A DNA stretch of 53,970 nucleotides. Origin: a virus. Taxonomy: Duplodnaviria > Caudoviricetes. The translations under genes and the position numbers were made by a program. Within the stretch, counting starts at the first letter, position 1; every line of letters begins with the position of its first letter. This document shows positions 12,901 through 50,114 of the stretch, one piece after another. Location of the stretch: positions 1-53,970 of the IMG/VR virus record IMGVR_UViG_3300025108_000066. One strand, given 5' to 3'. Below the pieces are notes generated by a model. It searched no databases, had not been told where the DNA came from, and saw only the letters and a list, made by a program, of their open reading frames with translations.

Positions 12901-15900
12901 TTTTCCATGATTAATTCAAACGTTTCTCTAGCTCCAGTTAAGTTTGAATCTTGACCTATAGCTTTTAAAAAGTTATTTATTGCATCTTGTCTTTCAAACG
13001 TAGTTGATTCAAGACTTGACTCAAATACATCTACGGCTGACTTATTAATGGCAGCACGTATCTCTGAATACATTTTGTAAACTCTAGGGCTAATAGATTC
13101 TGGTTTAAACTTTCTTGATTCAAGTTTACCTGTATCATCTTGTAGTATAGATATATCATATGGTATACCTTCTAAAAATTCTTCTATAGATACTAAGCCC
13201 ATGTCTCCTAATTCTTTTGCAGCTTCACGATTCACTGCTTGCCCGCCTCCAACTTCTTGTCTTAAGCTAGGTGCTTTTGCAACGGTTGAATCTTCACCAT
13301 TTTGTTTAGCCCTGAATAAGGCTGCGTAACTTAGTAAGTCGCTAACTTGATTAAGTTCTTCTTCAGTAGCACCTACAGTCCCTGGTTCAGTACCACTTTT
13401 TTTGCTGTCTATTAAATCGTTATAGTCTTTTGTAGTTGTAACAACTATATCATCTTCATATTTTCTGTTAAATATATTTGGTCTAGTAGAGAACTGAGTT
13501 AATGTTTCGTAAGTTCTTTCTAAGCTTTTTATTTTCTTAGCTTGCATACCAAAAATATTAAAGATATTTCTTAATCCTTCACTACGATTAGATATATTGC
13601 CTAATGTTTGTAGATATTCTAGTGCTGACCCAATAGCTTTTGGTGCATCTAATCCCAGTTTGTTTTTTACTACTTCCTTGAAGTTGTTAAATGAGCCGAA
13701 AGTACTGTTTGCAGTAATACCAAACATAGCAAAAATAGAAGCTGGTAAGCTGGTGTTCACCTGTTCTGTATAGAATCTAGTTTGTGTAGCTCTGTCGTAT
13801 TCATCTTGCATGTTACTTACAAGTTGTTTGACGTTAAAGTAACTACCACCACCTGTGCGTAAGTTCCTACGTGATTGACTTAGTATGTATCTTGATAAGT
13901 CATCATCAAATTTAATACCTATTTTATTTAAGAAGTTCTTTACAGCGAACCACATTCTTTGTATTGCTGATACATCTAAGGTAGCCGCTGCGTTAGCCAT
14001 AGCTTCTTCAATGGCTATGTATTTATCCATACCATTTTTTATATGTATATCTGCAACAGCTTTTATATGACCTTCGCTGTTATATAAATCTTCTAGTACT
14101 GCATTTAGTTTACCGTCAGGAACGAATGCTCGTAGCCCAAAGTGACCTAACGTCTCGTGAGCTACTATAAATTTTAGTTGCTCTTCAGTTTTAATGTTGT
14201 TAGCAAATACAACAATCTCATCTCCTAGTGCAAAGGCTGCAAAGTTTGTTGTATCAAAGTCTCCTTGTTGCCTGCCTGCAACTGCTCTTTCGTATAGCTC
14301 AGGAAACTTAGATTCTAGCTCTGCTTTATCTTTAACTACTGTAGCTTTAGGTTTTAGTTTAAGTTTACCAAGAGCTTTATTTACTATAGCTCTGACTCTA
14401 AGTATAGGCACTGGATTTTTAATAACAGAACCATCGAGTCTAAAGAACATTGTGTCATCTGGATTATCATCTACACCTTCTAACATATTATCTATATCTT
14501 TATTAGATAAGTCTTGTTTAGTTAGGAACTCCTGACCTTTTGGGTCTACTGGTTCCATTAGTTTTTCTAAATCTTTTAAGTATTTTCTTTTATAAGCTGT
14601 AGCTTCTTTCATATTACCAGCCATAAAAGTCTGCTCGATTGTTAACTCATCAGCCTCAGCTTTTGCTAAAGTTTTTACACTATAGCCTTCTGCATTATCA
14701 GCTTCTACTATTGCGTATTCAATTAGTTTTTTTTCTCCTTTCTTTAACTTATCTTTTGCAATAACCTCTGCTTCTTGGGCTTTTCTAAACGCAATCACGT
14801 CTGCCTGTTCTTTTCGTTCTTGTTCTGATAACTTACTATCTAACACTTCGTTGAGTTCTGCTACATTTTCGTTAGTGAATGCTAGTCCCTCCCCCTTTTT
14901 TAAGTTAGCTGCTTTATCTTTCTCTTCTGTTTCAATACGAGTTTTTCTTTGCTCTAAATTTTTCTTTGTTATAGGTTTAAATATAGCCATACCTTCAGCT
15001 GATTTAGTTTTATAAAGTATTAGTTTGCCTTTATCTGTAAAGTAATCGCTAAGTAAATCACCCTCTTTATTTATTCCATAGTTTTTATCTTCGTCTGACA
15101 GCTTTGCAAATCCGTTTTCTATTTTGTTCTTAGGAACACTTCTATTTGGTTGTGTTATTTTTGTAGTACCAAGGGCTTCTGTTATCTGATTCTTAATTAA
15201 ATTATGAACTTGAATAGCTGTGTAATCTGGCTGAGTATCAATAGTTATTTTACTAAGTGCACTTTGGTCAGTTTCTAATGGTTGAGCTGGACCAGAAAGG
15301 ACAGGTAATTTTTTCTTTTGTCTCTGGTCTATTATAGATTGGTATCTACCTCTTCTTTTAGTCCATGCAATAGCTTCTTGTATTCTAAGTTCTGAACCAC
15401 TTTGTATACCAGGTAAACCTGTAGCCTCTCCTACTTCAACTAGTTCAGTTGTAAGTCTATCGTATATTACATCGTCTAATACAGCTGCTTCGTTATCAGT
15501 ATAAAATCCAGTTGTTCCAAAATAATTATTTAAAAAGTTACGGGCTTTTGTAACTGCTCTTTCGTTAAACGTAATATCTCCATAGTCTTTACTTCGTTTA
15601 TCTAACCACCCTATATCTACTAACTCAGATAGTAAATCTTGTTTAGTGTCGTTATCTAAAATAGCTGCTTCGTACTGTGCTATACGCATGTCAGTATATA
15701 CAGCTGGAGTTACACCTACATCTTTAAAATCTTGCTCAGTCATATGTAAAAACATATTTCTAATTTCTTCTGTTTTTATTGCTGTGCTTTCTTTTACTGC
15801 TGTACTTATAGAATCACTTATTGGTTTAGGTACAGTATCAATAAGAGCAGAACCAGGTATCAACGGTTTTATATCGTCCCAAGCTTCTTGTGTATTTTTA

Positions 15901-18900
15901 TATTTTTTCTTAAAGTCTTTTGGTTTTGCTCTGGCTCTAGTTAACTTATCTACTTTTTGTTGACGTAAAAATTTATCAACCGCACTTACTTTATCTTGCC
16001 CCGTGCTATCGGCTGGTTTCTCAACAGGTTTTTCGTCAGCTTTCCGAACGGATTTTTCTTTTCCCTTAACTTGTAGTTTAGCCTTTCCTTTCTTCTTTTC
16101 TCCGACAGACTCTTTAGTCCCTTTGATGTTGGTAGTGTCAGCATCTGTTTCTTGCTTGTCTCTTGTAGTAGTTGTTCTGCTATCTCTGGTTTGTTTTCCT
16201 TCAACCACTTCAGCTGTTTCTTGCTTCGTATTGGCATCTTGTGTATCTCCTTCTATTTGAAATTGTGTCATAGCTTTTCTAGCATCATCGCCAAACGATA
16301 CTATTAAACCACCAGCATCTTGTACAAATCTTTCGTGTTGTTCTTTCGTACCTTCAAGCTGTACAAAGTTAACTCCGCCAGAAGGCATAGGTGTAAATGA
16401 TTCTCTAAGTTCTGCGTTAGCTATTTCAGCTTGAACATCTCTGTTATTAAAACTTTCACTTAATTGGTAAAGAATTTTACCGCCTACAATTTCACCGCCT
16501 ACAATTTCACTAGGTGTTGTTTCTGTCTCTTGATTGTCTTTAAATAAGTTTGTCTCTAAAGGAGAATAAAATTCATCTCCCTTTTTAGCAACTTTAAATC
16601 CTCTTCTCTTAAATGCTTTTTGTGCTCCAGCTACACTTTCAAGTACAGTATATCTTTTTCCTTGTGATTCTCTTATTTTTTCTATTTCTTTAAATATTTT
16701 TTCAACAGCTTTTGAATTTACACCACCTACCATCTCTACACTAATAGCATTATCTTCAATACTATATTGTGCTGCTGCTAGTGGAATACCTTTATCGTCT
16801 TCTATTACAATACTATCATTTGGAACAGCTCCTGTTTTAAATGCATCTAAAACAATAGGTGCCATCATACGTAAAGTAGCAGATAGTTTATCTTGTGTTT
16901 GTACATCTCCTCTTATTACAACTGACGCACTAGAAGTTTTGTTGCTTGGTTTTAAATACTCTAAAGATATAGCTCCTTCTATTGCTGATTGCATTACCCC
17001 TGATGGCATATTTTGAGCAGTTATACCTGAAAAAATATTTCCTGGTCCTTGTGCCATAGAATTTATAGTTTCATTTACATTATTTACAAACACAGAATTT
17101 AAAGATTTAGCTACAATAAATGGTCCCGCATAATCTTCTACTTTAATTTTTTTAGCTTCTTGTTCTGCTCTAGCTCTATCTAAAATTTTTTGTTGTTGAG
17201 CTCTTAATGCATTTATCTCTGTTGTATCTTCTGCTACTTCCTCACCTGCTTCTGTCCCTCGTTTTTCTACTCCTGTTCCTGTTGTTGCTACCAGTAAACT
17301 TAAGTACCTTTGTATTGCTTCGATATCAGCTACTACATTTCTATACTGTGCAGTGTTTATCTTACCGTCTTTCTCTAACTTAACTTTTGTTTGTATTTTT
17401 TTAGCTAATAATTTAGATAGTTCTTCTGTATTTGTTCTACCTGTTAAACCTTGGTCCATAGCTAGATAGCTGGCTATATTACGTCTTTTACCTTTATCTT
17501 TTGCACTAGATTTAAGTTCATATCTAGATAAAGCTGTTCTATCAAGAGTTGATATTTCTTCTAGCATAGTATTTAATTTATCTGCTGAAGTTAATTTTGC
17601 TTTACCTTTAGGTGTTGTAGTTGTAGTTGTTGCTTTTTTTAAATCTTGCTCAACATTTTTTATTTCTTTTTTAGTATTATTTTTAAGTATGTTAGCTATT
17701 GTTTCCTCTTCTTTTTTTCTATTCTGTTGTCGTATTTCTTTAATTTCAAAATACAAATCATCGCTAGTAATACCTATTTCTGTAGCGTTAGGACCACTAG
17801 GAAAAGCTGGAGAGTAAGAATTAAACTTAGCATCTGACATGGTAAGAAGTGAAGGATTCTGCAGAACAGTTTTAGTAGCATCTTCTGTTTTAGTAGTAGC
17901 TACTTCTTTATCTAATTTATTTAATAAATTAGTATTTTCTTTTTCTAAATCTTTAGTGTCTGATATAACTGCAATAGGAAAATCTCTAGTGCCTTTCTCT
18001 TTTAGTGTTTTCTTTCCCTCTTCTTCTACTATCTTAGTAGTTTCTTTTTCTAATTCTTTAGTGTCTTCACTATAAGCAGAAGCTGGTAGTTTCATTTGCT
18101 GACGTAACAGTGCATCCCTTCGTTCTTTTGCTCCAGTTATTTTTTCTTCACGACTTGGTTGTTCGTCTGTAAAATCTATTGGGTCATTAGGCTCAGTTCT
18201 AGAATTACTACGGTCTAATACATCTGAGCTAGGTTTAGAAAGTAAGTTAGCTGCAGCACCAATAGGACCACCAACAAAGAAACCTGCTGCAAACGAATTG
18301 ACTAATCTATTTTGTACTTGAGGGCTATCTAACTTTAACTGACCTGTGTTAGCTAGTATTAAACTTTCTTGTGCTACCTCTGTTGTACCTTCTAATGTAC
18401 CACCAACACCAAAACCTTTTAGAACTCTTGATGTTCGTCCACCTTGGTCAGTTCCTTCTAATAATGTTTTATTTATTTTCTTTGGCTTAACACTAAATAT
18501 TCTTGCAGCTAATAAAAACTCAGGTAGCATTTCCATTGCAGCATAAGGTATTGCAGTAAGAGCAGCAGACAGTCTATCGTCTTGACCCTCTTCTCTTTGT
18601 TCACCATATATATCACCAAGACCTATACCATAACTACTAGTTCCAATACCTAATGCTGTACCACCTTTTATAGCTTGGTCTCTAGCTGTTTGTGTAATTC
18701 GTCCTCGTACACCATCTCCTCCTAATAGTCCTTCTTTAGCTACAAGCTCATCAAGTTGAGTTTTAGTTGGTTTGCCTCTAAGTGTTTTAGCAACTCCTTT
18801 ACTATCAACAATAAATATATTAGGTGTTTTTATACTAGCAACACCAGCTAAACTTGATGCTTCACGAATTAATTTTCGCTCACCACCAGTAAGTGATTTT

Positions 18901-19718
18901 TTATCTTTTTCGTATTTCTTAGCTGCTTTTATTACAGCTTGTTTATAACGCTCTTTACCTAAAACACCAGATACTGCATAGCCTACAGCACTAAGCGGAT
19001 TTGCACCTGTTACTGCTCCTACGCCTCCACCTATCAGGGCAGCTGCTATGGATTCTAATAAGTTTGGACCTTGTTGTGCTAGGTTAGCTACGAACCAATC
19101 TATAGCATCATGCGATTCGTTTGCATCTCCGTCTTGTATGTAACCAGATTTTATCTTAGTAAATTCTCTTTGGAACGGCTCGTTCTTTTCTATCTCTCTG
19201 ATAGCTTCATCAACAAGACCTTGCCCATATTTTTCAGCTCCAAAGAATTGAGAGGCTCTACCATATAATAGTTTTAGATTACTACCACCTATGTCAAAGT
19301 TTTCTGCAGCTAGTCTTCCTGCTTGTGGATTTTTAATTCCTTTAATGTATGAACCAAATTCTTTAGGACCAACTCGTGTCCAGTCTCTTGCTATATCTAA
19401 AGAAGGTTTTAGTGGTCTGTCTCTAAGTTTTGCTACAGATTGTAATGCTGTCTTAGCGTCATCATCGTCAAACATCAAGCCGTTGACAAACATTTTTTTA
19501 GTGCTTGGGCTATAGAAAACTTGGGGAGTTTCATCAGGTGGCTCATAGCCAATAGCATCAGTTTGTGCTTGTAGACCTGCAAGAGTATTTAAATTACTTT
19601 GTGCTAACTCACCAGTGCTGGGTACATTGTCTATACTTTGAGAAACACTTTCGATACTTGGTATACTATCAGCAACACTCTCAATACTAGGGGTGTTTAA
19701 ACCTACACGTACTACCAT
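9906..19718 (-). CDS. Giant polyvalent internal virion/ejection protein (3270 aa)
   Basis: Last gene of the ejection cluster; N-terminal hydrophobic Gly/Ala helices; HETLGH...EE metallopeptidase-like motif; PLxRFG-like GYVQFVRRGKY; EQLNRRATFLAAYRL. Confidence 0.8.
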   Translation of the reverse strand: MVVRVGLNTPSIESVADSIPSIESVSQSIDNVPSTGELAQSNLNTLAGLQAQTDAIGYEPPDETPQVFYSPSTKKMFVNGLMFDDDDAKTALQSVAKLRDRPLKPSLDIARDWTRVGPKEFGSYIKGIKNPQAGRLAAENFDIGGSNLKLLYGRASQFFGAEKYGQGLVDEAIREIEKNEPFQREFTKIKSGYIQDGDANESHDAIDWFVANLAQQGPNLLESIAAALIGGGVGAVTGANPLSAVGYAVSGVLGKERYKQAVIKAAKKYEKDKKSLTGGERKLIREASSLAGVASIKTPNIFIVDSKGVAKTLRGKPTKTQLDELVAKEGLLGGDGVRGRITQTARDQAIKGGTALGIGTSSYGIGLGDIYGEQREEGQDDRLSAALTAIPYAAMEMLPEFLLAARIFSVKPKKINKTLLEGTDQGGRTSRVLKGFGVGGTLEGTTEVAQESLILANTGQLKLDSPQVQNRLVNSFAAGFFVGGPIGAAANLLSKPSSDVLDRSNSRTEPNDPIDFTDEQPSREEKITGAKERRDALLRQQMKLPASAYSEDTKELEKETTKIVEEEGKKTLKEKGTRDFPIAVISDTKDLEKENTNLLNKLDKEVATTKTEDATKTVLQNPSLLTMSDAKFNSYSPAFPSGPNATEIGITSDDLYFEIKEIRQQNRKKEEETIANILKNNTKKEIKNVEQDLKKATTTTTTPKGKAKLTSADKLNTMLEEISTLDRTALSRYELKSSAKDKGKRRNIASYLAMDQGLTGRTNTEELSKLLAKKIQTKVKLEKDGKINTAQYRNVVADIEAIQRYLSLLVATTGTGVEKRGTEAGEEVAEDTTEINALRAQQQKILDRARAEQEAKKIKVEDYAGPFIVAKSLNSVFVNNVNETINSMAQGPGNIFSGITAQNMPSGVMQSAIEGAISLEYLKPSNKTSSASVVIRGDVQTQDKLSATLRMMAPIVLDAFKTGAVPNDSIVIEDDKGIPLAAAQYSIEDNAISVEMVGGVNSKAVEKIFKEIEKIRESQGKRYTVLESVAGAQKAFKRRGFKVAKKGDEFYSPLETNLFKDNQETETTPSEIVGGEIVGGKILYQLSESFNNRDVQAEIANAELRESFTPMPSGGVNFVQLEGTKEQHERFVQDAGGLIVSFGDDARKAMTQFQIEGDTQDANTKQETAEVVEGKQTRDSRTTTTRDKQETDADTTNIKGTKESVGEKKKGKAKLQVKGKEKSVRKADEKPVEKPADSTGQDKVSAVDKFLRQQKVDKLTRARAKPKDFKKKYKNTQEAWDDIKPLIPGSALIDTVPKPISDSISTAVKESTAIKTEEIRNMFLHMTEQDFKDVGVTPAVYTDMRIAQYEAAILDNDTKQDLLSELVDIGWLDKRSKDYGDITFNERAVTKARNFLNNYFGTTGFYTDNEAAVLDDVIYDRLTTELVEVGEATGLPGIQSGSELRIQEAIAWTKRRGRYQSIIDQRQKKKLPVLSGPAQPLETDQSALSKITIDTQPDYTAIQVHNLIKNQITEALGTTKITQPNRSVPKNKIENGFAKLSDEDKNYGINKEGDLLSDYFTDKGKLILYKTKSAEGMAIFKPITKKNLEQRKTRIETEEKDKAANLKKGEGLAFTNENVAELNEVLDSKLSEQERKEQADVIAFRKAQEAEVIAKDKLKKGEKKLIEYAIVEADNAEGYSVKTLAKAEADELTIEQTFMAGNMKEATAYKRKYLKDLEKLMEPVDPKGQEFLTKQDLSNKDIDNMLEGVDDNPDDTMFFRLDGSVIKNPVPILRVRAIVNKALGKLKLKPKATVVKDKAELESKFPELYERAVAGRQQGDFDTTNFAAFALGDEIVVFANNIKTEEQLKFIVAHETLGHFGLRAFVPDGKLNAVLEDLYNSEGHIKAVADIHIKNGMDKYIAIEEAMANAAATLDVSAIQRMWFAVKNFLNKIGIKFDDDLSRYILSQSRRNLRTGGGSYFNVKQLVSNMQDEYDRATQTRFYTEQVNTSLPASIFAMFGITANSTFGSFNNFKEVVKNKLGLDAPKAIGSALEYLQTLGNISNRSEGLRNIFNIFGMQAKKIKSLERTYETLTQFSTRPNIFNRKYEDDIVVTTTKDYNDLIDSKKSGTEPGTVGATEEELNQVSDLLSYAALFRAKQNGEDSTVAKAPSLRQEVGGGQAVNREAAKELGDMGLVSIEEFLEGIPYDISILQDDTGKLESRKFKPESISPRVYKMYSEIRAAINKSAVDVFESSLESTTFERQDAINNFLKAIGQDSNLTGARETFELIMEKYRQIRQVDATGDKQTNYTSEAKRKSALFIREVNRALFQPLKVEDWQDGNAGVGVKENYRFEDWNDEFKTPEPGAQPIFRFPNDNEYRRIIQGLSELNAIFKKGKEGEAEANTITNTIKSLFALEEATKQIEFNSKRTLMTGYVQFVRRGKYQVETIAFDKDRNRIKLDQQYKNAMPYFQAETEQDAREIQKQVNETFGKNPFVVRDKSGQEIEVTLEASRSVARTASLMSLDQNLSAFLRIADDLQINISVNDRDKIIKGLTDTGSAARQKLPRVGKAGWNKEVVRNQAMFLRAQSHLAGKTYFEHKLNTVLASEDQWLGDRNKLNKLKETLDRVEKFGNEQEKQVARANYDAYANMYRYSAGTTENTADEFTIYEMTGPLANIRTPKQVKPEGRGEDYKQQAKDILGYYASGENIVDSTEDILENSKTGQNLKVLAVSSQLGGSVATAIINSMSMVTHSIPYLATYNPKTGYGGGFGMSASAYHMQKAARQMSDGVRTRLGLTEAGAEQSLANLDWMNKVAGFDPETGEYTADPELAEQLQIQYNISPDEAQAVHRATSDGVLQAAQYNALVGTARGGLTNTTSGMLKKWMSLFSYTEQLNRRATFLAAYRLQKEKLIAANAKEFNVKNITPERIAELNKEIEGEAAKFAEVAVNTSQGEYSMFNRPKISRGPLLNSLMMYKQFVMISIELMKNLGRNERIYFLMLLFFLSGMKGLPFGEDIMDLIDTLVQMFGIKIGTVEKELTMFIDEVAPGTSPLVMRGVLDKVTGATMSTRLGFGDLIPLTGMAKAGSSFEQEVTNFLGPVYAAGEQAVAAVTLFGNYTAGKVGLKADTTRFVDVLRSQPYGGIRAIADAYTYYDDGVITNKQGKVLDKDVHFKEIFFRALNFYPASASYQNDIIRMTKQTGDYVKSIKIKFSEAYVKARISGDRAEMRRIEKDVRAHNRTHRNSEFYLSDWKASANRMYDAWKLPAAERFKKFATKKSRPDIDKLIQAYDM

Positions 19719-43904: not shown

Positions 43905-44253
43905 TACTGGTCTCTAGCCCACCCCATTTGACAGTGGACTTAATTAAATCTGCTTTAACTGCTGAAGATGTTTCAGGGCTATGTATCATAGTCCAACTTG
44001 TAGTGAGTAGTTCTTCTGCTTGTGCTCGAGCCTTGAGTTTAAACGTCATACCCTTTTCTACAATCTCAGCTCTGTAAGATTCTACTTTCTTTAGGTATAC
44101 GCTGTCTTTGTTGAATTTAGTTAAGTCATCAATACTGATGTGGTGTCTAACTCTAAGCTCATCTAGGGTTTCACCTGAGCCTTCTAGCAACAATGCCATA
44201 TCGAAAGCTAGACGGTCAGACCACTTGGTGTGTCTTAATGGTAGTGTATCCAT
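43771..44253 (-). CDS. terS: Probable terminase small subunit
   Basis: First gene of the late arm, upstream of terL; helical with C-terminal GVKITINLG strand; start reassigned to MDTLP at 44253. Confidence 0.65.
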   Translation of the reverse strand: MDTLPLRHTKWSDRLAFDMALLLEGSGETLDELRVRHHISIDDLTKFNKDSVYLKKVESYRAEIVEKGMTFKLKARAQAEELLTTSWTMIHSPETSSAVKADLIKSTVKWGGLETSNANTEDASGGVKITINLGGQEHPTTVIDAEDYTEDRPAAIKNAK

Positions 44254-44260
44254 GAGTTCA

Positions 44261-44289
44261 AACCTATTGTATTTCAACGGATATGTCAA
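44261..44289 (-). promoter_or_regulatory. Sigma70-type late-arm promoter, probably leaderless
   Basis: TTGACA (44289-44284), 17 nt, TAGGTT; ATG follows after 7 nt. Confidence 0.6.
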
Positions 44290-44449
44290 GATGGGTGCCC
44301 AAACTTTACATCTTTGTTTTTTGGCTCTTGTTATGAGAGGTTTACTTATATGGGGGGCAGGTGTCGGCACGCAGTCCGACTACCCTCCCTGTGCCACTTA
44401 ATAAATTTACTATCTTATTTCTAATAGGCTACAGCCCTTTAAAATCAAG

Positions 44450-44477
44450 CGAGCAGAAATTATTTTTAGATGTGTCA
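44450..44477 (+). promoter_or_regulatory. Early-region bipartite motif, copy 1
   Basis: CGAGCAGAAATTATTTTTAGATGTGTCA; 86 nt upstream of ATG 44536. Confidence 0.7.
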
Positions 44478-44535
44478 GGGTTTAATCATGGAAAGCACAA
44501 GCTGACCAAGAACGAAAATCATAGGAGTAAAAACT

Positions 44536-44949
44536 ATGGAAGAAAATAAAAAAGACAACATAGTCTTATCTGAAAACAGAGTAAGGTTATACGTTGGCTT
44601 AAAAGGTGGAGCTCAACATGTTTTGAGAGTTACCGACAGCGAACAGTACGAGGACAGGTATAATTGGTACCTACCTACTGAAGCTAAAAAACTATTAGCC
44701 CATGTTATGAAAATAACAGCTAAAGGCTCAAAAGTAATGGTTGGCTACAAAGGCAAACCAATATCAGCCGAAGGCATGGTATTCGATAGCATCTACACAG
44801 ATGAAGTCGAGAAAAACAAAGGTGAGCTATATATTGGCTACTTCATGATAGGGACTCGAAAACGAGGTCTTCAAATCAGAAGAGCTTCTAATGGAACTGA
44901 AGGGGAGTTTAACCCTAGAGGGTCTACTAGAGATATAGACATAGTATAA
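44536..44949 (+). CDS. Hypothetical early protein
   Basis: AGGAG SD; first gene of the + arm. Confidence 0.8.
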   Translation: MEENKKDNIVLSENRVRLYVGLKGGAQHVLRVTDSEQYEDRYNWYLPTEAKKLLAHVMKITAKGSKVMVGYKGKPISAEGMVFDSIYTDEVEKNKGELYIGYFMIGTRKRGLQIRRASNGTEGEFNPRGSTRDIDIV

Positions 44950-44991
44950 CAACCAAGTCCTCCTCCCGAAAGGGAGGGGGCAGGAGTAAAA

Positions 44992-45141
44992 ATGAGTGTA
45001 TATAAACATATTAAAGTACATTACTTTGATAGAAACCAACCTAAAGTGAGAACATTTGATAATGCATTAGAAGCTAACTTGTTTATCAAGTTCCCACCAC
45101 AAGACATAAGAATAGTTAGCTGGATTCCACTATCTAACTAA
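44992..45141 (+). CDS. Hypothetical protein, 49 aa (not in ORF track)
   Basis: AGGAG SD at 44982; MSVYKHIKVHYFD...WIPLSN*; followed by a terminator. Confidence 0.7.
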   Translation: MSVYKHIKVHYFDRNQPKVRTFDNALEANLFIKFPPQDIRIVSWIPLSN

Positions 45142-45160
45142 CTAGCCTACCTACCTACCT

Positions 45161-45192
45161 ACCCTCACTCAATCGAGTGGGGGTTTCTTTTT
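45161..45192 (+). terminator. Intrinsic terminator
   Basis: ACCCTCACTC-AATC-GAGTGGGGGT followed by TTCTTTTT; preceded by (CCTA)4. Confidence 0.8.
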
Positions 45193-45196
45193 GTCT

Positions 45197-45696
45197 ATCA
45201 AATCGTTTACGATTTGATTATATCATAACTTTACATAGATATCACTAACTTTACATACACATAGATATATAATCAATAGGTTCTAGTAATCAATAGGTTC
45301 TAGAATGTCGGAAGGTTAAAGTAGTATATATATATAAACCATTGGTCGGTAGGTTATGGCACGTATAATGCAACTATATAGACTATCTAGTTGTAACTTT
45401 ACGCAACTTTACATGTTCTAGATAGTAAAACCTTACACATGTAACCTTACATTCCCTTAGTTTACGCCATATATAGGGCATTATGCTATCCATAACTATC
45501 TAAACTATCTAGACTATCTAGTTATTTTAATATAATGCGTCACTAAGCGTTTACATCTAGCAATATACTAAATTTCGCAGCGATACATTACCCATAAAAA
45601 ACTAGATAAACTAGATAGTTAATGCCAACTTGTTGATATATATAAAGTTTTACTATCTAGTTACACACCCATTAAGATAACTTTACATAGATAGTT
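45197..45696. repeat. AT-rich non-coding iteron-like repeat field (candidate origin or packaging region)
   Basis: Multiple ACTATCTAG (both orientations) and AACYTTAC copies, a 17-bp tandem repeat, a 22-bp palindrome. Confidence 0.75.
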
Positions 45697-45709
45697 ATAT
45701 ACACAATGC

Positions 45710-45737
45710 CGAGCAGAAAAAAATTTTCGATGTGTCA
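45710..45737 (+). promoter_or_regulatory. Early-region bipartite motif, copy 2
   Basis: CGAGCAGAAAAAAATTTTCGATGTGTCA; 104 nt upstream of ATG 45814. Confidence 0.7.
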
Positions 45738-45813
45738 AGGTTTTGGCATGGCGAGGGATTTCCCCTTGTTATATATAATATTAACTATCGCCCTATGGGG
45801 CAGGATATAAACT

Positions 45814-46191
45814 ATGAACGACAATGTAAAAGAGTATGTAAGGTGGAAACCTATAATCAAAAAAGGGAATGCTACTAAAGGCATTAATGCTGGCGACTTG
45901 CACATTAAAGTTGTTGAGTGTGATAAAAAACACCCTAAAGCAATGTGTACTGACAATGTTATGGCTATTGTAACTAAAGGTCTTAACGCTATTGGTAAAC
46001 TTGTTGGTGGCAAAGAGATACTAGCTATGGACTTCTCTGACAGAGAGAAAGAGAGACACATTGAGGATAAGCATAAAGTGTGGTCTATCCAACGCTCTGG
46101 AAAGTGGGGTAAAGAGTTGTATTTATCCTTTACTGTACCATCAAGTAACAGTAATGCACTTGATGATGAGTTTGATATAGATAATCTATAA
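45814..46191 (+). CDS. Hypothetical early protein with acidic C-terminal tail
   Basis: AGGA SD; ends LDDEFDIDNL. Confidence 0.75.
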   Translation: MNDNVKEYVRWKPIIKKGNATKGINAGDLHIKVVECDKKHPKAMCTDNVMAIVTKGLNAIGKLVGGKEILAMDFSDREKERHIEDKHKVWSIQRSGKWGKELYLSFTVPSSNSNALDDEFDIDNL

Positions 46192-46258
46192 TCATCTTAC
46201 AACAACTTGTGGTATCCCTAGTGATGTACTAGGGATATCCTTTATGAGAGGTATAAAT

Positions 46259-46459
46259 ATGGCTAGATGTAGAGACTGTAATGTTATTATACAACAAGGT
46301 AGAGTATCACTAGGCTACGATACATGCCTAGTTTGTGGTGAGGTTGAGGCACGTAAGGTTAAGCATACTGTGGTGCCATTGCATAAGTCTAACTACATAG
46401 TAGTGAGCAATAAAGAGGACTTGAAAGGAATTAATAACAAAGGTGGTAAACATGACTGA
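46259..46459 (+). CDS. C4 zinc-finger protein (DksA/TraR-finger-like)
   Basis: CRDC..I...R...G..TCLVC; GAGG SD supports start at 46259. Confidence 0.65.
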   Translation: MARCRDCNVIIQQGRVSLGYDTCLVCGEVEARKVKHTVVPLHKSNYIVVSNKEDLKGINNKGGKHD

Positions 46460-46667
46460 TGATATACAAGAGGTTACTGTACACATAGCAGTAATACAAA
46501 ATGGTACTGTGCATATGTATTGGAACACTAGATTCTATGTACATGATAGTGAGGGCGTATTAGATAAGGCATTAGAGTTTGTCAAAAGGCAAGGACACAA
46601 TCAAGAACAATGCAGTTGGGCAATAGTAGGTAGCCTTATTGAAAGGCATAATGAATATATGGGTTAA
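46452..46667 (+). CDS. Hypothetical protein
   Basis: AGGTGG SD before ATG 46452; overlaps the upstream stop. Confidence 0.6.
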   Translation: MTDDIQEVTVHIAVIQNGTVHMYWNTRFYVHDSEGVLDKALEFVKRQGHNQEQCSWAIVGSLIERHNEYMG

Positions 46668-47030
46668 CTTGTGATTATGAGACACAAGTGTGGGGTAGGT
46701 AGTGGCAAAGTAGGGTATAATAAATATACGGATTTAATTCCAAAATCCCACGCCTACCTACCTCTAATGAATATTTCTCAATGAGTAATTAGTACTCAAG
46801 CTTATTGGGAGCATAGATGTAAGCTAGCGTATACATCTATGTAGGGTAGATAGCTAGATGGTTGGTGATTCTTAGTCCATGAAAGCCAACATAAAGACTA
46901 CCAAGATGACTATGTATGGAGCAAAACTAGTCTATCTATCCTTAATGAATTACTAGAACGAAATCACCTAGCAATAGGTTGGAGATAGGTAACGCTGTAT
47001 CGTTCCAGCATGTAGGTTACTTATCTCTAA
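46667..47030 (+). ncRNA. Candidate structured RNA (seven consecutive stem-loops)
   Basis: Back-to-back stems with G-U pairs valid only on the + strand, a GCAA tetraloop, and no ORF in the track. Confidence 0.6.
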
Positions 47031-47039
47031 GGACTATGC

Positions 47040-47067
47040 CGAGCAGAAATTTTTTTCGGTTGTGTCA
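47040..47067 (+). promoter_or_regulatory. Early-region bipartite motif, copy 3
   Basis: CGAGCAGAAATTTTTTTCGGTTGTGTCA; 87 nt upstream of ATG 47127. Confidence 0.7.
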
Positions 47068-47126
47068 AAATCAAACAAGAATTTCCCACAATGTCGTGGG
47101 GATATAACAACACATAGGAGAAAACT

Positions 47127-48116
47127 ATGAGAGCGAAACTACTTATGCAAACCCTAAAGGACTTGTTTAAGATAAAGAGGACAGTAGCTATCGAGGGTAG
47201 CCCTGGGGGTGGTAAGACTACCATATGCCAACAGGTTGCCAAAGAGCTAGGTGTCGGATACGAAGAAGTGCATATGCCAACCATGTTGGTAGAGGACTTC
47301 GGTATTCCTATACCTCAGCCTGATGGCTCACTTAAATATTCCATACCACATTGGATACCCGTAGTGGGTAGCGACCACCCTGATACAGGTATATTGGTAC
47401 TTGATGACATGAATCAAGCTAGTGCTGACTTACAGAAAGTGGTAGCTAACATGTGTCAAGCAAGGAATGTACATGGCTATCAAATCAAAGAGGGGTGGCA
47501 GATTGTATCAACAGGTAACAAGGTGTCGGACAGAGCTGGTGCTAATCGTGTATTGTCTCACTTACGTAACAGGCATACTGTGTATGACTTAGAGACACAC
47601 GTTGATGATTGGTATGCATGGGCTATTGAACACAATGTAAAGCCTGAAGTCATCTCATTCATCAAGTTCAGAACGGACTTGTTGCATGACTTTGACCCAC
47701 AAAGAGAGTCTAACCCTACACCACGTTCATGGGTAGAGGGTGTGTCTAATGCAATAGGTGTCGTATCACCTGAGGCAGAGTATGAGACATTCAAAGGTGC
47801 TGTCGGTGAGGGTGCTAGTGCAGAGTTCACAGGGTTTGTGAAGATATATCGTAACCTACCTGATATGGAACAGGTCATTAAGAAACCACTTGAGGCTACT
47901 GTGCCTACTGACCCAGCTACATTGTATGCAATGTCTGGCAGTCTAGCTACGTACTCAACAGTGGATAACTTCAAGAATGTACTGACATATCTAGACAGGA
48001 TACCCCCTGAGTTTTCAGTACTGTCGGTATCGTATGCAGTCAAGAAGAATGTCGAGCTGATGAACACACCTGAGTTCACTAAGTGGGCAGTCGATAAGCA
48101 GAATGTAATTATATAA
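47127..48116 (+). CDS. MoxR/AAA_5-like AAA+ ATPase
   Basis: Walker A GSPGGGKT, Walker B LVLDDMN, sensor STGN, arginine finger LRNR, TPRSW. Confidence 0.9.
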   Translation: MRAKLLMQTLKDLFKIKRTVAIEGSPGGGKTTICQQVAKELGVGYEEVHMPTMLVEDFGIPIPQPDGSLKYSIPHWIPVVGSDHPDTGILVLDDMNQASADLQKVVANMCQARNVHGYQIKEGWQIVSTGNKVSDRAGANRVLSHLRNRHTVYDLETHVDDWYAWAIEHNVKPEVISFIKFRTDLLHDFDPQRESNPTPRSWVEGVSNAIGVVSPEAEYETFKGAVGEGASAEFTGFVKIYRNLPDMEQVIKKPLEATVPTDPATLYAMSGSLATYSTVDNFKNVLTYLDRIPPEFSVLSVSYAVKKNVELMNTPEFTKWAVDKQNVII

Positions 48117-48132
48117 CAACGAGGTAAACACA

Positions 48133-48987
48133 ATGAGTAAACTAAACAATGAGGCATTGTTGGTACAGCTTACTGTACGACAAGCTACCATGCGTAAGAG
48201 GGACAAGAAAGCCACACAAGATGTAGCTATGTCCAACAACGCAGAGGTATCTAGTGGTAACTACAACAAAGCTCTACTACCAATGGCTGAGTCATTGAGT
48301 AACATACACAAGATGACAACACAGATAAGGCAGATGTACTATGACAACACGTTGCCATGGGGCATTGAGGGTACCATGATACTACCCTCTAAAAACTATC
48401 TGTCGTTCATGGAAATGTACAGGAAAGCTAAGTCCCAATGGGTGGTGCTAGTGGATAAGTTCATAGATGACTATCCAAGACTGATACAAAATGCACAGGT
48501 ATCACTAGGTAAGTTATACAATGCTAGTGATTACCCTGACATAGAGGACTTGAAGAGTAAGTTCGACATGGACATTAGGGTAATGCCTGTACCAGCTGAT
48601 GACTTCAGAGTATCAATACCTGACAGCGAGTTGGCACAAGTCAGAGCTGATGTCGGTGCACAAGTTGAGAGTGCAACAACCAAAGCTATGGGCGAGGCAT
48701 GGCAGAGACTATACGATAGAGTGAAACACATATCGGATAAGTTGCATGACCCTAAGTCTATCTTCAGAGATACTCTGATAGATAACACTAAGGATATATG
48801 TGATGTGCTTAAGAGATTGAACATCAATGATGATGAGAATCTAGAGAGGCTACGTGCTGAAGTTGAGCAATCATTTACTAAACTACACCCTGAATCATTA
48901 CGTAATGACCCACATCTTAGGACTCAAAAGAGTAATGAGGCTAGTGATATTATGAAGAGAATGGGTGCATACATGGGAAATATATAA
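48133..48987 (+). CDS. Helical protein of the AAA-vWA module (DUF3150-like)
   Basis: TLPW...G..ILP, YNASDYP; sits between the ATPase and vWA genes. Confidence 0.6.
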   Translation: MSKLNNEALLVQLTVRQATMRKRDKKATQDVAMSNNAEVSSGNYNKALLPMAESLSNIHKMTTQIRQMYYDNTLPWGIEGTMILPSKNYLSFMEMYRKAKSQWVVLVDKFIDDYPRLIQNAQVSLGKLYNASDYPDIEDLKSKFDMDIRVMPVPADDFRVSIPDSELAQVRADVGAQVESATTKAMGEAWQRLYDRVKHISDKLHDPKSIFRDTLIDNTKDICDVLKRLNINDDENLERLRAEVEQSFTKLHPESLRNDPHLRTQKSNEASDIMKRMGAYMGNI

Positions 48988-50114
48988 TGGATATAAACAC
49001 ACGTATAAGTAAAGCTAAGACACGACTGATACTTGAACACCCTTTCATTGGCACAATAGCTATGAACATGGTGTTCAGAGTTAGTGATGAGTGTCCAACA
49101 GCTATGACTAATGGCAAAGAGGTTGTACTAAACCCTGACTTCTGTGCCATGTTGAATGATGATGAGCTATTGTTTCTAGTAGCTCATGAATGCTTTCACC
49201 CTATGCTAGAGCATTGTGTACGTAGAGGCGACAAAGACCCAAGGGGTTGGAACGTAGCTACTGACTATGTAATCAATCAGTTACTTACTGATGAGAAGAT
49301 AGGCACTATGCCAAAGCAAGGTCTATTAGACAAGGAAATCTATGACAAGGGCGAGGGTATATCAGATAAGATATACCACTTGTTACCCCAAGATGATGAT
49401 GACACACCCAATGGTGGTAACGACCAAGGTCAAGCACTAGATGAGTGTGGGGATAGTGGTCAATCACCAGCTGAGATTGAACAGCAGAAAGCAGAATGGA
49501 AAGTTAAGGTAGCACAAGCAAGTCAATCAGCCAAGATGATGGGTAAGCTGAGTGCCAACATGCAGAGACTTGTTGGTGTGTTACTGAAACCCAAAGTAAA
49601 CTGGCGAGATGTCTTACAGAGGTTTGTTGTCAAGCAAAGGAATGATGACAGGTCTTATGCAAGACTGAACAGAAGATTCGCTAGTCAAGGACTAGTAATA
49701 CCTAGTATTACAGGTGAGGGACTAGGCGAGATAGCATTTGCAATAGATACATCTGGCTCTATTGGTGAGACTGAATTGAATCAGTTTGCAAGTGAGGTAA
49801 GAGAAGTATGGGAAACCCACAAGCCTGAGAAGATACATGTTATCTACTTCGATAGTGAGGTCTGCCATGCTGATGAGTTTGATAGGTATACTGAGCCTAC
49901 CTTTGCACCACATGGTGGTGGAGGTACAGCATTCAGCCCTGTCTTCAAGTACATGCAAGACAAGGACATACAACCTGTCGCATGTATATTTCTAACAGAC
50001 TTATATTGCAACGACTATGGCGATACACCTGACTATCCAGTCTTATGGGTATCAACACATGAACATGAGACCCTACCACCATTTGGTGAGGTAACTCTAA
50101 TGCAAGATGAGTAA
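48987..50114 (+). CDS. DUF2201-like metallopeptidase + vWA domain protein
   Basis: PTAMTNG, VAHECFH (HExxH), WNVATDYVIN; MIDAS IDTSGS, GGGGT.F, FLTD. Confidence 0.88.
   Translation: MDINTRISKAKTRLILEHPFIGTIAMNMVFRVSDECPTAMTNGKEVVLNPDFCAMLNDDELLFLVAHECFHPMLEHCVRRGDKDPRGWNVATDYVINQLLTDEKIGTMPKQGLLDKEIYDKGEGISDKIYHLLPQDDDDTPNGGNDQGQALDECGDSGQSPAEIEQQKAEWKVKVAQASQSAKMMGKLSANMQRLVGVLLKPKVNWRDVLQRFVVKQRNDDRSYARLNRRFASQGLVIPSITGEGLGEIAFAIDTSGSIGETELNQFASEVREVWETHKPEKIHVIYFDSEVCHADEFDRYTEPTFAPHGGGGTAFSPVFKYMQDKDIQPVACIFLTDLYCNDYGDTPDYPVLWVSTHEHETLPPFGEVTLMQDE

What the first reader, a model, noticed from the sequence alone, without database searches (positions are those of the whole stretch)
46667..47030. 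~365-nt candidate novel structured RNA tiled by seven stem-loops
Seen: H1 46667-46689 (7 bp); H2 46692-46764 (11-bp closing stem enclosing two inner hairpins, a multibranch junction); H3 46775-46811 (12 bp); H4 46812-46841 (perfect 10 bp); H5 46843-46942 (15 bp, one bulge); H6 46966-46979 (GCAA tetraloop); H7 46980-47029 (14 bp plus an inner stem). Non-Watson-Crick pairs in the stems are G-U on the + strand, which points to selection at the RNA level. TAATGAAT directly follows both large domains H2 and H5 (46765, 46943) and also occurs at 46649. It is not a tRNA, CRISPR array or simple terminator. Inference: a phage ncRNA or a processed small-RNA array (decoy, antitoxin mimic, anti-defence or regulatory RNA) just upstream of the AAA-vWA operon.
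Basis: partly seen in the sequence, partly recalled or inferred. Interest (0 to 1): 0.85.

Follow-up and report, generated by a model that had tools for sequence, protein, structure and literature searches.

The report
Hairpin repeat cassettes in phage early region
The seven stem-loops are real, but they are not one large RNA: they are a row of separate hairpin cassettes from a repeat family shared by many uncultured marine phages, probably marking and stabilising early messenger RNA and helping these phages swap small genes.

Summary
Observation confirmed. All seven hairpins fold better than shuffles (z -2.2 to -4.8; whole region z -5.6). TAATGAAT follows H2 and H5. There is no Rfam, tRNA or tandem-repeat match.

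Interpretation partly supported. The region is not one 365-nt RNA. It is three tandem units of a small hairpin plus a 'G-hairpin' (H1+H2, H4+H5, H6+H7), with H3 extra. G-hairpins have conserved arms (GGGATAGATAGG / CCTATCTATCCT), variable interiors and the linker TTAATGAATT. I found 61 distinct copies across about 45 marine viral or metagenome loci, and only 2 chance-level hits in 185,579 bacterial species genomes.

The closest relative carries a different hairpin where the window has H2-H5. One site is filled in one relative and empty in another. A tRNA-Asn sits inside the array in two relatives.

Stem mismatches are G-U on the sense strand, about 21 against 1 A-C. H6-H7 pairs in 154 of 154 cells, with four compensatory pairs.

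Best reading (0.5): cis-acting RNA punctuation and stability cassettes that also act as recombination sites, akin to REP elements and T4 PeSLs. No transcript data were obtained.

The parts
46667..46689 (+). H1, a small variable hairpin (7 bp, 9-nt loop) that precedes G-hairpin copy 1
   Evidence: z -2.85. Conserved in the closest relative L049.
46692..46764 (+). H2, G-hairpin copy 1. An 11-bp closing stem with one G-U encloses a nested interior.
   Evidence: About 94% identical copies occur in L009, L050, L052 and L055. Shorter versions with the same outer interior occur in L012, L031 and L034.
46765..46774 (+). Linker copy 1 (TAATGAATAT), a single-stranded AU-rich segment after H2
   Evidence: (D8)
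46775..46811 (+). H3, an extra hairpin (11 bp, 3 G-U) not found in any fetched relative
   Evidence: z -3.86. No BLAST match in the loci.
46812..46841 (+). H4, a small hairpin (perfect 10 bp) that precedes G-hairpin copy 2
   Evidence: I3; z -4.47
46843..46942 (+). H5, G-hairpin copy 2 (15 bp with one bulge). Its interior is not conserved elsewhere.
   Evidence: Only its last ~40 nt plus the arm and linker match other loci.
46942..46951 (+). Linker copy 2 (TTAATGAATT, the family consensus)
   Evidence: It matches the RNase E core motif RN|WUU as GA|AUU (PMC5222698).
46956..46971 (+). Remnant of the 3' end of a 140-150-aa gene that relatives carry here. Its stop codon TAG lies in H6.
   Evidence: L013 ORF 9499-9921 ends in the H6 stem and loop
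46966..46979 (+). H6, a small hairpin with a GNRA-type loop (GCAA), invariant in 7 of 7 distinct orthologues
   Evidence: Related small hairpins ahead of other G-hairpins have GCGA or GTGA loops.
46980..47029 (+). H7, G-hairpin copy 3 and the only positionally conserved one. It has a 13-bp outer stem, a 4-bp inner stem, an invariant 8-nt loop and a 3'-side internal loop.
   Evidence: 154 of 154 cells paired, 4 pairs changed on both sides, 4 pairs GC<->GU. z -4.78.
47040..47067 (+). Third copy of the 28-bp bipartite motif that heads the AAA-vWA unit. It is not part of the hairpin family but marks the downstream boundary of the array.
   Evidence: Variants in L049 and L008.

Best explanation
The region is a tandem array of three cassettes. 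Each is a small variable hairpin directly followed by a 'G-hairpin', and two of the three end in the linker TTAATGAATT. G-hairpins form a repeat family specific to a group of uncultured marine phages.

Family features:
- Arms GGGATAGATAGG / CCTATCTATCCT, conserved in sequence.
- An interior that varies from about 16 to 110 nt.
- Location between small early genes, always on the sense strand.

Shown:
- The family exists.
- It is modular and is gained, lost and swapped between close relatives.
- Pairing is selected on the sense strand.
- A tRNA gene sits inside such an array in two relatives, flanked by the same linker.

Inferred mechanism: the array is transcribed as part of the early polycistronic RNA. 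The hairpins act in cis as punctuation. They block 3' exonucleases and define stable ends. The AU-rich linker is cut by a single-strand endonuclease of the RNase E type, as tRNA trailers are, and it leads into the next ribosome-binding site. Because the same roughly 30 nt recur at many intergenic sites, the cassettes also serve as short homologies for recombination that shuffles early ORFs, tRNA and hairpins.

In this window the array lies in the 3' untranslated part of the unit ending at 46667. It is a remnant left when the gene that relatives carry before H6 was lost.
For: Family and spread:
- The pattern scan of viral contigs gave 36 stretches.
- A strand-symmetric, arms-only definition gave 93 elements, 61 of them distinct with both flanks available. 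Of those 61, 46 have the linker on exactly one side, 0 on both and 15 on neither.
- The same pattern gave only 2 hits in 185,579 bacterial and archaeal species genomes, both in gut Bacteroidales MAGs.
- No cultured phage matched.

Modularity:
- L049 has a different hairpin in place of H2-H5.
- The H2 orthologue fills a site in L009 that is empty in L013.
- H2 has long and short versions that differ by a nested ~40-nt insert.

Sense-strand pairing:
- In arm positions 1-10, G-U 26 cells against A-C 6 (binomial p 0.0005).
- 5 of the 6 A-C cells, and 4-5 of the G-U cells, are register artefacts. That leaves about 21 to 1.
- H6-H7: 154 of 154 cells paired. Four pairs changed on both sides. Covariation score 0.238 against 0.145 for shuffles (0 of 500 reach it). 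Slid controls pair in 34-47% of cells.
- The stem extends beyond the conserved core more often than shuffled partners do: position 11, 30 of 41 against 24.2; position 13, 12 of 18 against 7.0.
- Small hairpins ahead of G-hairpins have GCAA, GCGA or GTGA loops.

RNA context:
- tRNA-Asn lies inside the array in L010 and L028, with the linker on both sides.
- 15 of 46 distinct-flank elements are followed within 60 nt by a Shine-Dalgarno sequence, a start and an ORF of at least 30 aa on the same strand. The count is 0 of 46 on the other strand.
- 14 of 58 elements lie 23-28 nt before the next ORF.
- Linker positions +6 to +10 read G/A, A, A, T, T. This fits the RN|WUU core of RNase E sites, which also occur near tRNA 3' ends (PMC5222698, passages read).
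Against: - No transcript evidence. The four metatranscriptome runs laid gave no contig over 46613-47014.
- The RN|WUU match carries little information, and the elements in the logo were chosen by their linker, so that step is partly circular.
- The host is unknown, so an RNase E of this specificity is assumed.
- Punctuation does not explain why the arm sequence itself, and not only the pairing, is kept across phages whose shared proteins are 38-56% identical. This calls for a sequence-specific reader that I did not find. The conserved Zn-ribbon early protein is present in only 17 of 48 loci.
- 12 of 47 elements have a 5' flank that repeats 5-6 nt of the linker, which hints at insertion at the DNA level.
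- Arrays without any gene between the hairpins, as in this window, have no obvious use as punctuation.
Confidence: 0.5

Rival explanations
1. Selfish DNA. The G-hairpins are miniature mobile elements of the MITE, REP or attC type that insert at the DNA or single-stranded DNA level into the linker motif. Their RNA folding is a by-product.
For: - Inverted-repeat arms of 11-13 bp.
- A filled site against an empty site.
- 12 of 47 elements have a 5-6-nt flank duplication.
- Nested insertion in a loop.
- Multiple copies with variable length, as with attC or REP.
- HUH enzymes and integron integrases read one DNA strand as a hairpin, which could also give a strand bias.
Against: - Only 2 chance-level hits in the bacterial species genomes, so no host pool or parent element is seen.
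- The own genome has no Y1 (IS200/RAYT) transposase and no tyrosine recombinase. The control genomes rang for both families.
- Interiors are not conserved as they are in MITE families.
- 35 of 47 elements lack a clear flank duplication.
- Short-homology recombination between linkers explains the filled and empty sites equally well.
- GNRA-type loops and the fixed spacing to ribosome-binding sites point to RNA.
Confidence: 0.2
2. Terminator-promoter cassette, like a T4 PeSL. The 3' arm plus linker (about 22 conserved nt) is a promoter for a host or phage RNA polymerase. The hairpin attenuates read-through from upstream.
For: - A conserved block of about 22 nt, always co-oriented with genes.
- It ends 23-28 nt before many start codons and directly before the tRNA 5' end.
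- It is conserved across phages that share a tail-fibre-like protein and so perhaps a host.
- PeSLs combine a promoter and a stem-loop and drive module shuffling (PMC2839356, passages read).
Against: - No sigma-70-like hexamers. The scan of 44000-48000 found 6 promoter-like sites against 13.3 expected, none at the cassettes.
- No T7-like polymerase was found in the genome, but the control for that search was silent.
- There is no U-run after the stems, and the terminator scan did not pick them.
- The linker also follows the tRNA on its 3' side, where a processing signal is expected and a promoter is not needed.
Confidence: 0.12
3. Trans-acting small RNAs. Hairpins released from the array act as decoys, sponges or anti-defence RNAs against a host protein that reads the conserved stem.
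For: - The arm sequence, not only the pairing, is conserved across divergent phages.
- Arrays without genes exist.
- The array has early expression context.
- The linker could release units.
Against: - No target or partner is known.
- There is no resemblance to any Rfam family in the window or in 15 relatives' loci.
- There is no ToxI-like or CRISPR-like periodic repeat.
- Many copies sit singly, just ahead of a start codon, as cis elements do.
Confidence: 0.1
4. One large structured non-coding RNA or ribozyme of about 365 nt.
For: The region is densely tiled by hairpins and has a strong z-score.
Against: - The composition differs between near-identical relatives.
- Only H6-H7 is positionally conserved.
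- No long-range pairs appear in the fold apart from one weak outer stem.
- No Rfam hit.
Confidence: 0.02

Closest known systems
REP / BIME elements of bacteria (GTAG-tagged palindromic repeats; PMC3733652, passages read)
   Same: - Short intergenic palindromes, mostly downstream of ORFs and co-oriented.
- Sub-families with compensating stem changes.
- Frequent G-T pairs, which that paper takes as a sign of function as RNA.
- They occur in clusters.
   Different: - This family is in phage genomes. That paper's main text holds no word beginning 'phage'.
- Only 1-4 copies per contig, not hundreds.
- Stems are 11-16 bp and interiors reach ~110 nt.
- A conserved 10-nt 3' linker follows.
- There is no terminal GTAG tag outside the stem.
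- There is no RAYT gene in the phage.
PeSL cassettes (promoter-early stem-loops) of T4-type phages (PMC2839356, passages read)
   Same: - Conserved intergenic cassettes with a stem-loop in the plastic early regions, next to ORFans.
- Insertions, deletions and replacements between close relatives map to the cassettes.
- Recombination between cassettes is the proposed vehicle.
   Different: - No sigma-70-like promoter is recognisable here.
- The stem sequence itself is the conserved part.
- Cassettes also stand in gene-free tandem arrays and beside a tRNA.
Bacterial MITEs that fold as RNA hairpins (Correia, ERIC and similar; recalled, not read here) and MITEs reported in viral genomes (PMC11602168, passages read)
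   Same: - Inverted-repeat ends.
- Presence/absence polymorphism.
- Partial flank duplication.
- Co-transcription with neighbouring genes.
   Different: - The interior is not conserved.
- No matching copies in bacterial genomes.
- No parent transposon.
- That paper's supplementary lists of viral MITEs could not be opened and might include these contigs.
Intercistronic RNase III sites of the phage T7 early region (recalled)
   Same: A family of related hairpins between early cistrons of a polycistronic RNA. They leave protective 3' hairpins.
   Different: - The conserved helix here is only 11-13 bp.
- The conserved feature after it is a single-stranded AU-rich linker, which suggests an RNase E-type cut rather than RNase III.
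Hairpin promoters of N4-like phages (PMC4496689 and PMC9163698, passages read)
   Same: Hairpins in the early region of a phage that carries the AAA/vWA module also found in N4-like phages.
   Different: - N4 and LUZ7 promoter hairpins have stems of 4-7 bp and a conserved 3-4-nt loop on the template strand.
- Here the stems are 11-16 bp, the loops are variable, and pairing is kept on the non-template strand.

Membership tests
Any Rfam family | Covariance-model score at or above the gathering score | tested here: not met
   0 hits in the window. The best hit at E<=10 was 18.6 bits against a gathering score of 56.1. 15 relatives' loci gave only 2 tRNAs.
tRNA / tmRNA | Cloverleaf detected by ARAGORN | tested here: not met
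   0 genes in the window.
CRISPR array or type III (ToxI-like) antitoxin array | Near-identical direct repeats at regular spacing | tested here: not met
   No tandem repeat in 46600-47100. Hairpin units are 23-100 nt and are unlike one another apart from the arms.
Type III toxin-antitoxin | Adjacent endoribonuclease toxin gene | tested here: inconclusive
   The neighbouring ORFs have no significant Pfam or PHROG family. No toxin-specific model was run.
MITE | Terminal inverted repeats | tested here: met
   10-13-nt arms are conserved in 61 distinct copies.
MITE | Target-site duplication at every copy | tested here: inconclusive
   12 of 47 share at least 5 nt, 8 share 3 nt and 27 share 2 nt or fewer.
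MITE | Parent element or copies in host genomes | tested here: not met
   2 chance-level hits in the genome-contig scan. Uncultured hosts may be missing from that collection.
MITE | Conserved internal sequence within a family | tested here: not met
   Interiors differ in length (16-110 nt) and sequence. Only small sub-families share them.
REP / REPtron | Associated RAYT (Y1 HUH) transposase | tested here: not met
   No PF01797 match in the own genome. Controls rang in 7 of 14 genomes. The host was not testable.
REP / REPtron | GTAG tag at one end outside the palindrome | tested here: inconclusive
   The arms contain ATAG/GTAG inside the stem. No separate terminal tag is seen in the logo.
PeSL | Stem-loop cassette in plastic early regions, with indels between relatives at the cassettes | tested here: met
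PeSL | Strong sigma-70-like early promoter in the cassette | tested here: not met
   There is no promoter-like site at the cassettes. The scan found 6 sites against 13.3 expected in 44000-48000.
N4-type hairpin promoter | Short stem (4-7 bp), conserved 3-4-nt loop, hairpin on the template strand | tested here: not met
   Stems are 11-16 bp and loops are variable. The G-U bias is on the non-template strand. Features taken from PMC4496689 and PMC9163698.
Intrinsic terminator | G+C-rich stem followed by a U-run | tested here: not met
   The scan finds 45161-45184 but none of H1-H7. In some relatives H7 is followed by a T-rich stretch, so this may hold there.
Integron attC site | Integron integrase (tyrosine recombinase) nearby | tested here: not met
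   No PF00589 match in the own genome. Controls rang in 14 of 14 genomes.
RNase E processing site | Single-stranded AU-rich segment with the RN|WUU core | tested here: met
   Linker positions +6 to +10 read G42/A5, A46, A46, T47, T47 of 47 (the elements were chosen by linker). Motif from PMC5222698.
RNase E processing site | Cleavage in vivo that depends on RNase E | not testable with these tools
   Needs end-mapping in an rne mutant.

The most novel reading that the evidence does not exclude
The G-hairpin plus linker is the joint of a phage-borne cassette-exchange system. It would be a sequence-specific hairpin site, read by a still unidentified phage or host enzyme at the RNA or single-stranded DNA level. 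Through it, co-infecting marine phages would trade early ORFans, tRNA genes and further hairpins, including insertion into the loops of existing hairpins. This would be a phage counterpart of integron attC sites or REPtrons. The released hairpin RNAs might in addition titrate a host nuclease.
Probability: 0.15. Interest if true: 0.75.

Novelty: new variant of a known kind. Interest (0 to 1): 0.45.

Why it matters
- It replaces a tempting reading, a large novel ncRNA, with a testable one: a widespread family of sense-strand hairpin cassettes in the early regions of uncultured marine phages.
- The family gives a sequence handle (arms plus linker) for finding early regions and module boundaries in viral contigs.
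- It is a natural case for studying how phages punctuate and stabilise early polycistronic RNA.
- It is a second example, after the T4 PeSLs, of conserved intergenic cassettes that appear to drive the shuffling of small early genes.
- The strict conservation of the arm sequence across distantly related phages points to an unknown sequence-specific reader worth looking for.

Tried and rejected
**Known RNA classes.** Rfam at gathering and at E<=10, ARAGORN and Tandem Repeats Finder found nothing in the region.

**Cultured phages.** blastn of the region and of a relative's array against 50,697 phage records gave no match in one case and two 27-nt chance matches in the other.

**Transcription.**
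- 24 runs hold parts of 45700-48200, 6 of them RNA.
- Contigs of four metatranscriptome runs, laid on 44000-50000, covered the AAA operon from 47077, 47103 and 47116 onwards.
- They covered nothing in 46613-47014.
- These are contigs of 95-99% relatives whose upstream sequence differs (loose end at 47077), so the gap is no evidence for or against transcription.

**Partner protein.** The very conserved 71-aa Zn-ribbon early protein (46244-46459) looked like a candidate reader of the arms. A profile search found it in only 17 of 48 loci. It has no Pfam family.

**N4-like frame.**
- I first took the 3270-aa ORF for a virion RNA polymerase.
- It has no Pfam hit, no PDB sequence hit, and only a C-terminal match to a PHROG of unknown function.
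- N4-likeness therefore rests on the AAA/vWA module alone, at under 30% identity.
- The PF00940 search of the genome was empty, but its control was silent too, so absence of a phage polymerase is not shown.

**Host MITE.** Rejected for lack of bacterial copies.

**My first G-U / A-C count.** It contained register-shift artefacts caused by the 4-nt periodicity of the arms. It was redone with a strand-symmetric definition and the artefacts were listed.

**Literature.**
- Searches for a published description of such a phage hairpin family were.
- None of the papers listed describes this family by title or abstract.

**Not used.** Structure prediction, complex prediction and protein database searches were not used, because no protein claim depends on them.
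Full report
**1.

The region lies between the stop of a 74-aa ORF (46443-46667) and the AAA ATPase gene (47127), in a 53,970-bp viral record that CheckV rates 99% complete.

- Each of the seven hairpins forms when folded alone, with z-scores from -2.17 (H5) to -4.78 (H7).
- The whole stretch folds at -142 kcal/mol against -109.6 +/- 5.8 for shuffles (z -5.64). The opposite strand folds less well, at -123 kcal/mol.
- TAATGAAT is at 46649, 46765 and 46943.
- No tRNA, Rfam family or tandem repeat is present.

**2. It is not one RNA**

- Five related viral contigs were found through the AAA protein at 86-90% identity. In the four that include upstream sequence, only H6-H7 and the leader of the AAA gene are conserved.
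- In two of these, the sequence up to H6 is a protein gene whose stop codon TAG lies in the H6 stem and loop. The window keeps a 16-nt remnant of that gene's end (46956-46971).
- The closest relative, metagenome locus L049, has the same upstream gene end and the same H1, H6 and H7. Between them it has an unrelated hairpin of about 75 nt where the window has H2-H5, 251 nt.

**3. What the hairpins are**

- The 3' arms of H2, H5 and H7 are related.
- Scanning the viral collection with an arm-gap-arm pattern gave 36 stretches.
- A strand-symmetric definition by arms alone counted 93 elements in the fetched loci. Of these, 61 were distinct with both flanks available.
- The consensus is 5' (T)AATG-GGATAGATAG(G) ... 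(C)CTATCTATCC-TTAATGAATT (the flank part is partly circular because that set was chosen by linker).
- Total length runs from about 38 to 132 nt, and the interiors vary.
- 46 of the 61 have the linker on exactly one side, none on both and 15 on neither. Four of those 15 are H7 orthologues.
- Most copies are preceded within 0-9 nt by a small hairpin of variable sequence.
- The same pattern occurs only twice in one genome each of 185,579 bacterial and archaeal species, both in gut Bacteroidales MAGs, which is chance level. It is absent from cultured phages.
- The contigs that carry the family range from close relatives to phages that share only a terminase at 38-40% identity or a tail-fibre-like protein.

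**4. Modularity**

- Besides the L049 swap, the H2 orthologue (94% identical) sits in L009 at a site that is uninterrupted in L013. The difference is exactly the hairpin plus four or five linker letters.
- H2 has short versions in L012, L031 and L034 that lack about 40 nt nested in an inner loop.
- Arrays upstream of the AAA gene differ in number and kind of modules in every lineage examined.
- In L010 and L028 one module is a tRNA-Asn (GTT) gene, with the linker directly before its 5' end and directly after its discriminator base.

**5. Strand and level of selection**

- In the 46 linker-oriented distinct elements, mismatches in the ten core arm pairs are G-U in 26 cells and A-C in 6.
- Five of the six A-C cells, and four or five of the G-U cells, come from register slips. 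That leaves about 21 to 1.
- Both kinds arise from single transitions and were equally detectable. Pairing is therefore kept on the sense strand.
- Seven distinct H6-H7 orthologues pair in 154 of 154 cells.
  - Four pairs change on both sides, three in the outer stem and one in the inner stem.
  - Four pairs toggle between G-C and G-U.
  - The covariation score is 0.238 against 0.145 +/- 0.021 for shuffles (0 of 500 reach it).
  - Slid controls pair in 34-47% of cells.
  - With seven related sequences this is supportive, not conclusive.
- Among paralogues the helix continues beyond the conserved core more often than with shuffled partners.
- The small hairpins of the H6 type carry GCAA, GCGA or GTGA loops.

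**6. Context**

- Elements are intergenic and co-oriented with genes.
- 15 of 46 distinct-flank elements are followed within 60 nt by a Shine-Dalgarno sequence, a start codon and an ORF of at least 30 aa on the same strand. None of the 46 has this on the other strand.
- 14 of 58 lie 23-28 nt before the next ORF, and 6 of 58 lie 51-55 nt before it (ORF calls are approximate).
- The linker reads R-A-A-U-U at +6 to +10. This fits the RN|WUU core reported for RNase E, an enzyme that also cuts near tRNA 3' ends (PMC5222698, passages read).

**7. Mechanism**

My best reading is that these are cis-acting RNA cassettes in the early polycistronic transcript.

- The hairpin gives a stable 3' end and a barrier.
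- The linker is an endonuclease site and the lead-in to the next ribosome-binding site.
- The repeated arms and linker act as short homologies for recombination.

The first two steps are inferred. Modularity and sense-strand pairing are shown. In this window the array sits downstream of the unit that ends at 46667 and upstream of the third copy of a 28-bp motif (47040) that heads the AAA unit. It looks like a remnant array left after gene loss.

**8. Rivals**

- A DNA-level mobile element fits the arms, the filled and empty sites, the partial flank duplication (12 of 47) and the nested insert. It lacks a host pool and a phage-encoded Y1 transposase or tyrosine recombinase.
- A terminator-promoter cassette fits the fixed spacing and the roughly 22-nt conserved block. 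It lacks recognisable promoter hexamers and U-runs.
- Trans-acting RNAs cannot be excluded.
- One large RNA is contradicted.

**9. Comparison with known systems**

- The nearest known kinds are bacterial REP elements, where G-T pairs were likewise read as a sign of RNA function (PMC3733652), and the PeSL cassettes of T4-type phages (PMC2839356).
- The family fails defining features of each. It has no RAYT and no GTAG tag (REP). It has no sigma-70-like promoter (PeSL). It has no parent element and no conserved interior (MITE). It does not have a short stem with a conserved loop on the template strand (N4 hairpin promoters).
- I therefore class it as a new variant of a known kind.
- I found no paper that describes it (searches; listings and abstracts only, except for the passages cited above). 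Supplements were closed.

**10. Limits**

- There are no transcript data.
- The host is unknown.
- The polymerase that reads the early region is unknown.
- The factor that would explain conservation of the arm sequence has not been identified.

Noticed in passing
window 44450-44477, 45710-45737, 47040-47067: Three copies of a 28-bp motif head the three early gene units. In relatives (L049, L008) the outer letters of the third copy change in a complementary way, which suggests a hairpin around an A/T tract. Other relatives carry a quite different ~90-nt module at that place.
   Followed up: partly
window 45197-45696: A 500-bp non-coding field of 9-, 17- and 20-nt repeats in direct and inverted copies, origin-like. 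The 9-mer resembles the G-hairpin arm.
   Followed up: partly
window 45130-45184: A (CTAC)x8 tract that looks like a lone, expanded G-hairpin 3' arm. It runs straight into the only clear intrinsic terminator of the early region, 45161-45184.
   Followed up: no
L010 881-954; L028 5585-5656: A tRNA-Asn (GTT) without an encoded CCA is embedded in the hairpin array of two relatives. The window has no tRNA.
   Followed up: yes
window 46244-46459: A 71-aa protein with two CxxC pairs stays 73-92% identical in relatives whose AAA ATPase is only 49-56% identical. It has no Pfam or PHROG family.
   Followed up: partly
window 46956-46961 and 47000-47005: The invariant H7 loop contains six letters complementary to GAACGA, which lies about 40 nt upstream. 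Both are invariant in all orthologues, so a pseudoknot is possible but has no covariation to test it.
   Followed up: no
window 9906-19718 (-): The 3270-aa ORF has no Pfam or PDB sequence match. It matches a PHROG of unknown function only at its C-terminus. Calling this phage N4-like is not justified by that gene.
   Followed up: partly
L010 733-798; L023; L031; L032: A second hairpin family has a different 10-bp stem with compensating changes between contigs. It is followed by the same type of linker (TTAAAGAATT).
   Followed up: partly
window 47077: One metatranscriptome contig (run X19) matches from 47077 onwards but carries 50 unrelated letters upstream. Strains therefore differ just before the AAA leader.
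   Followed up: no
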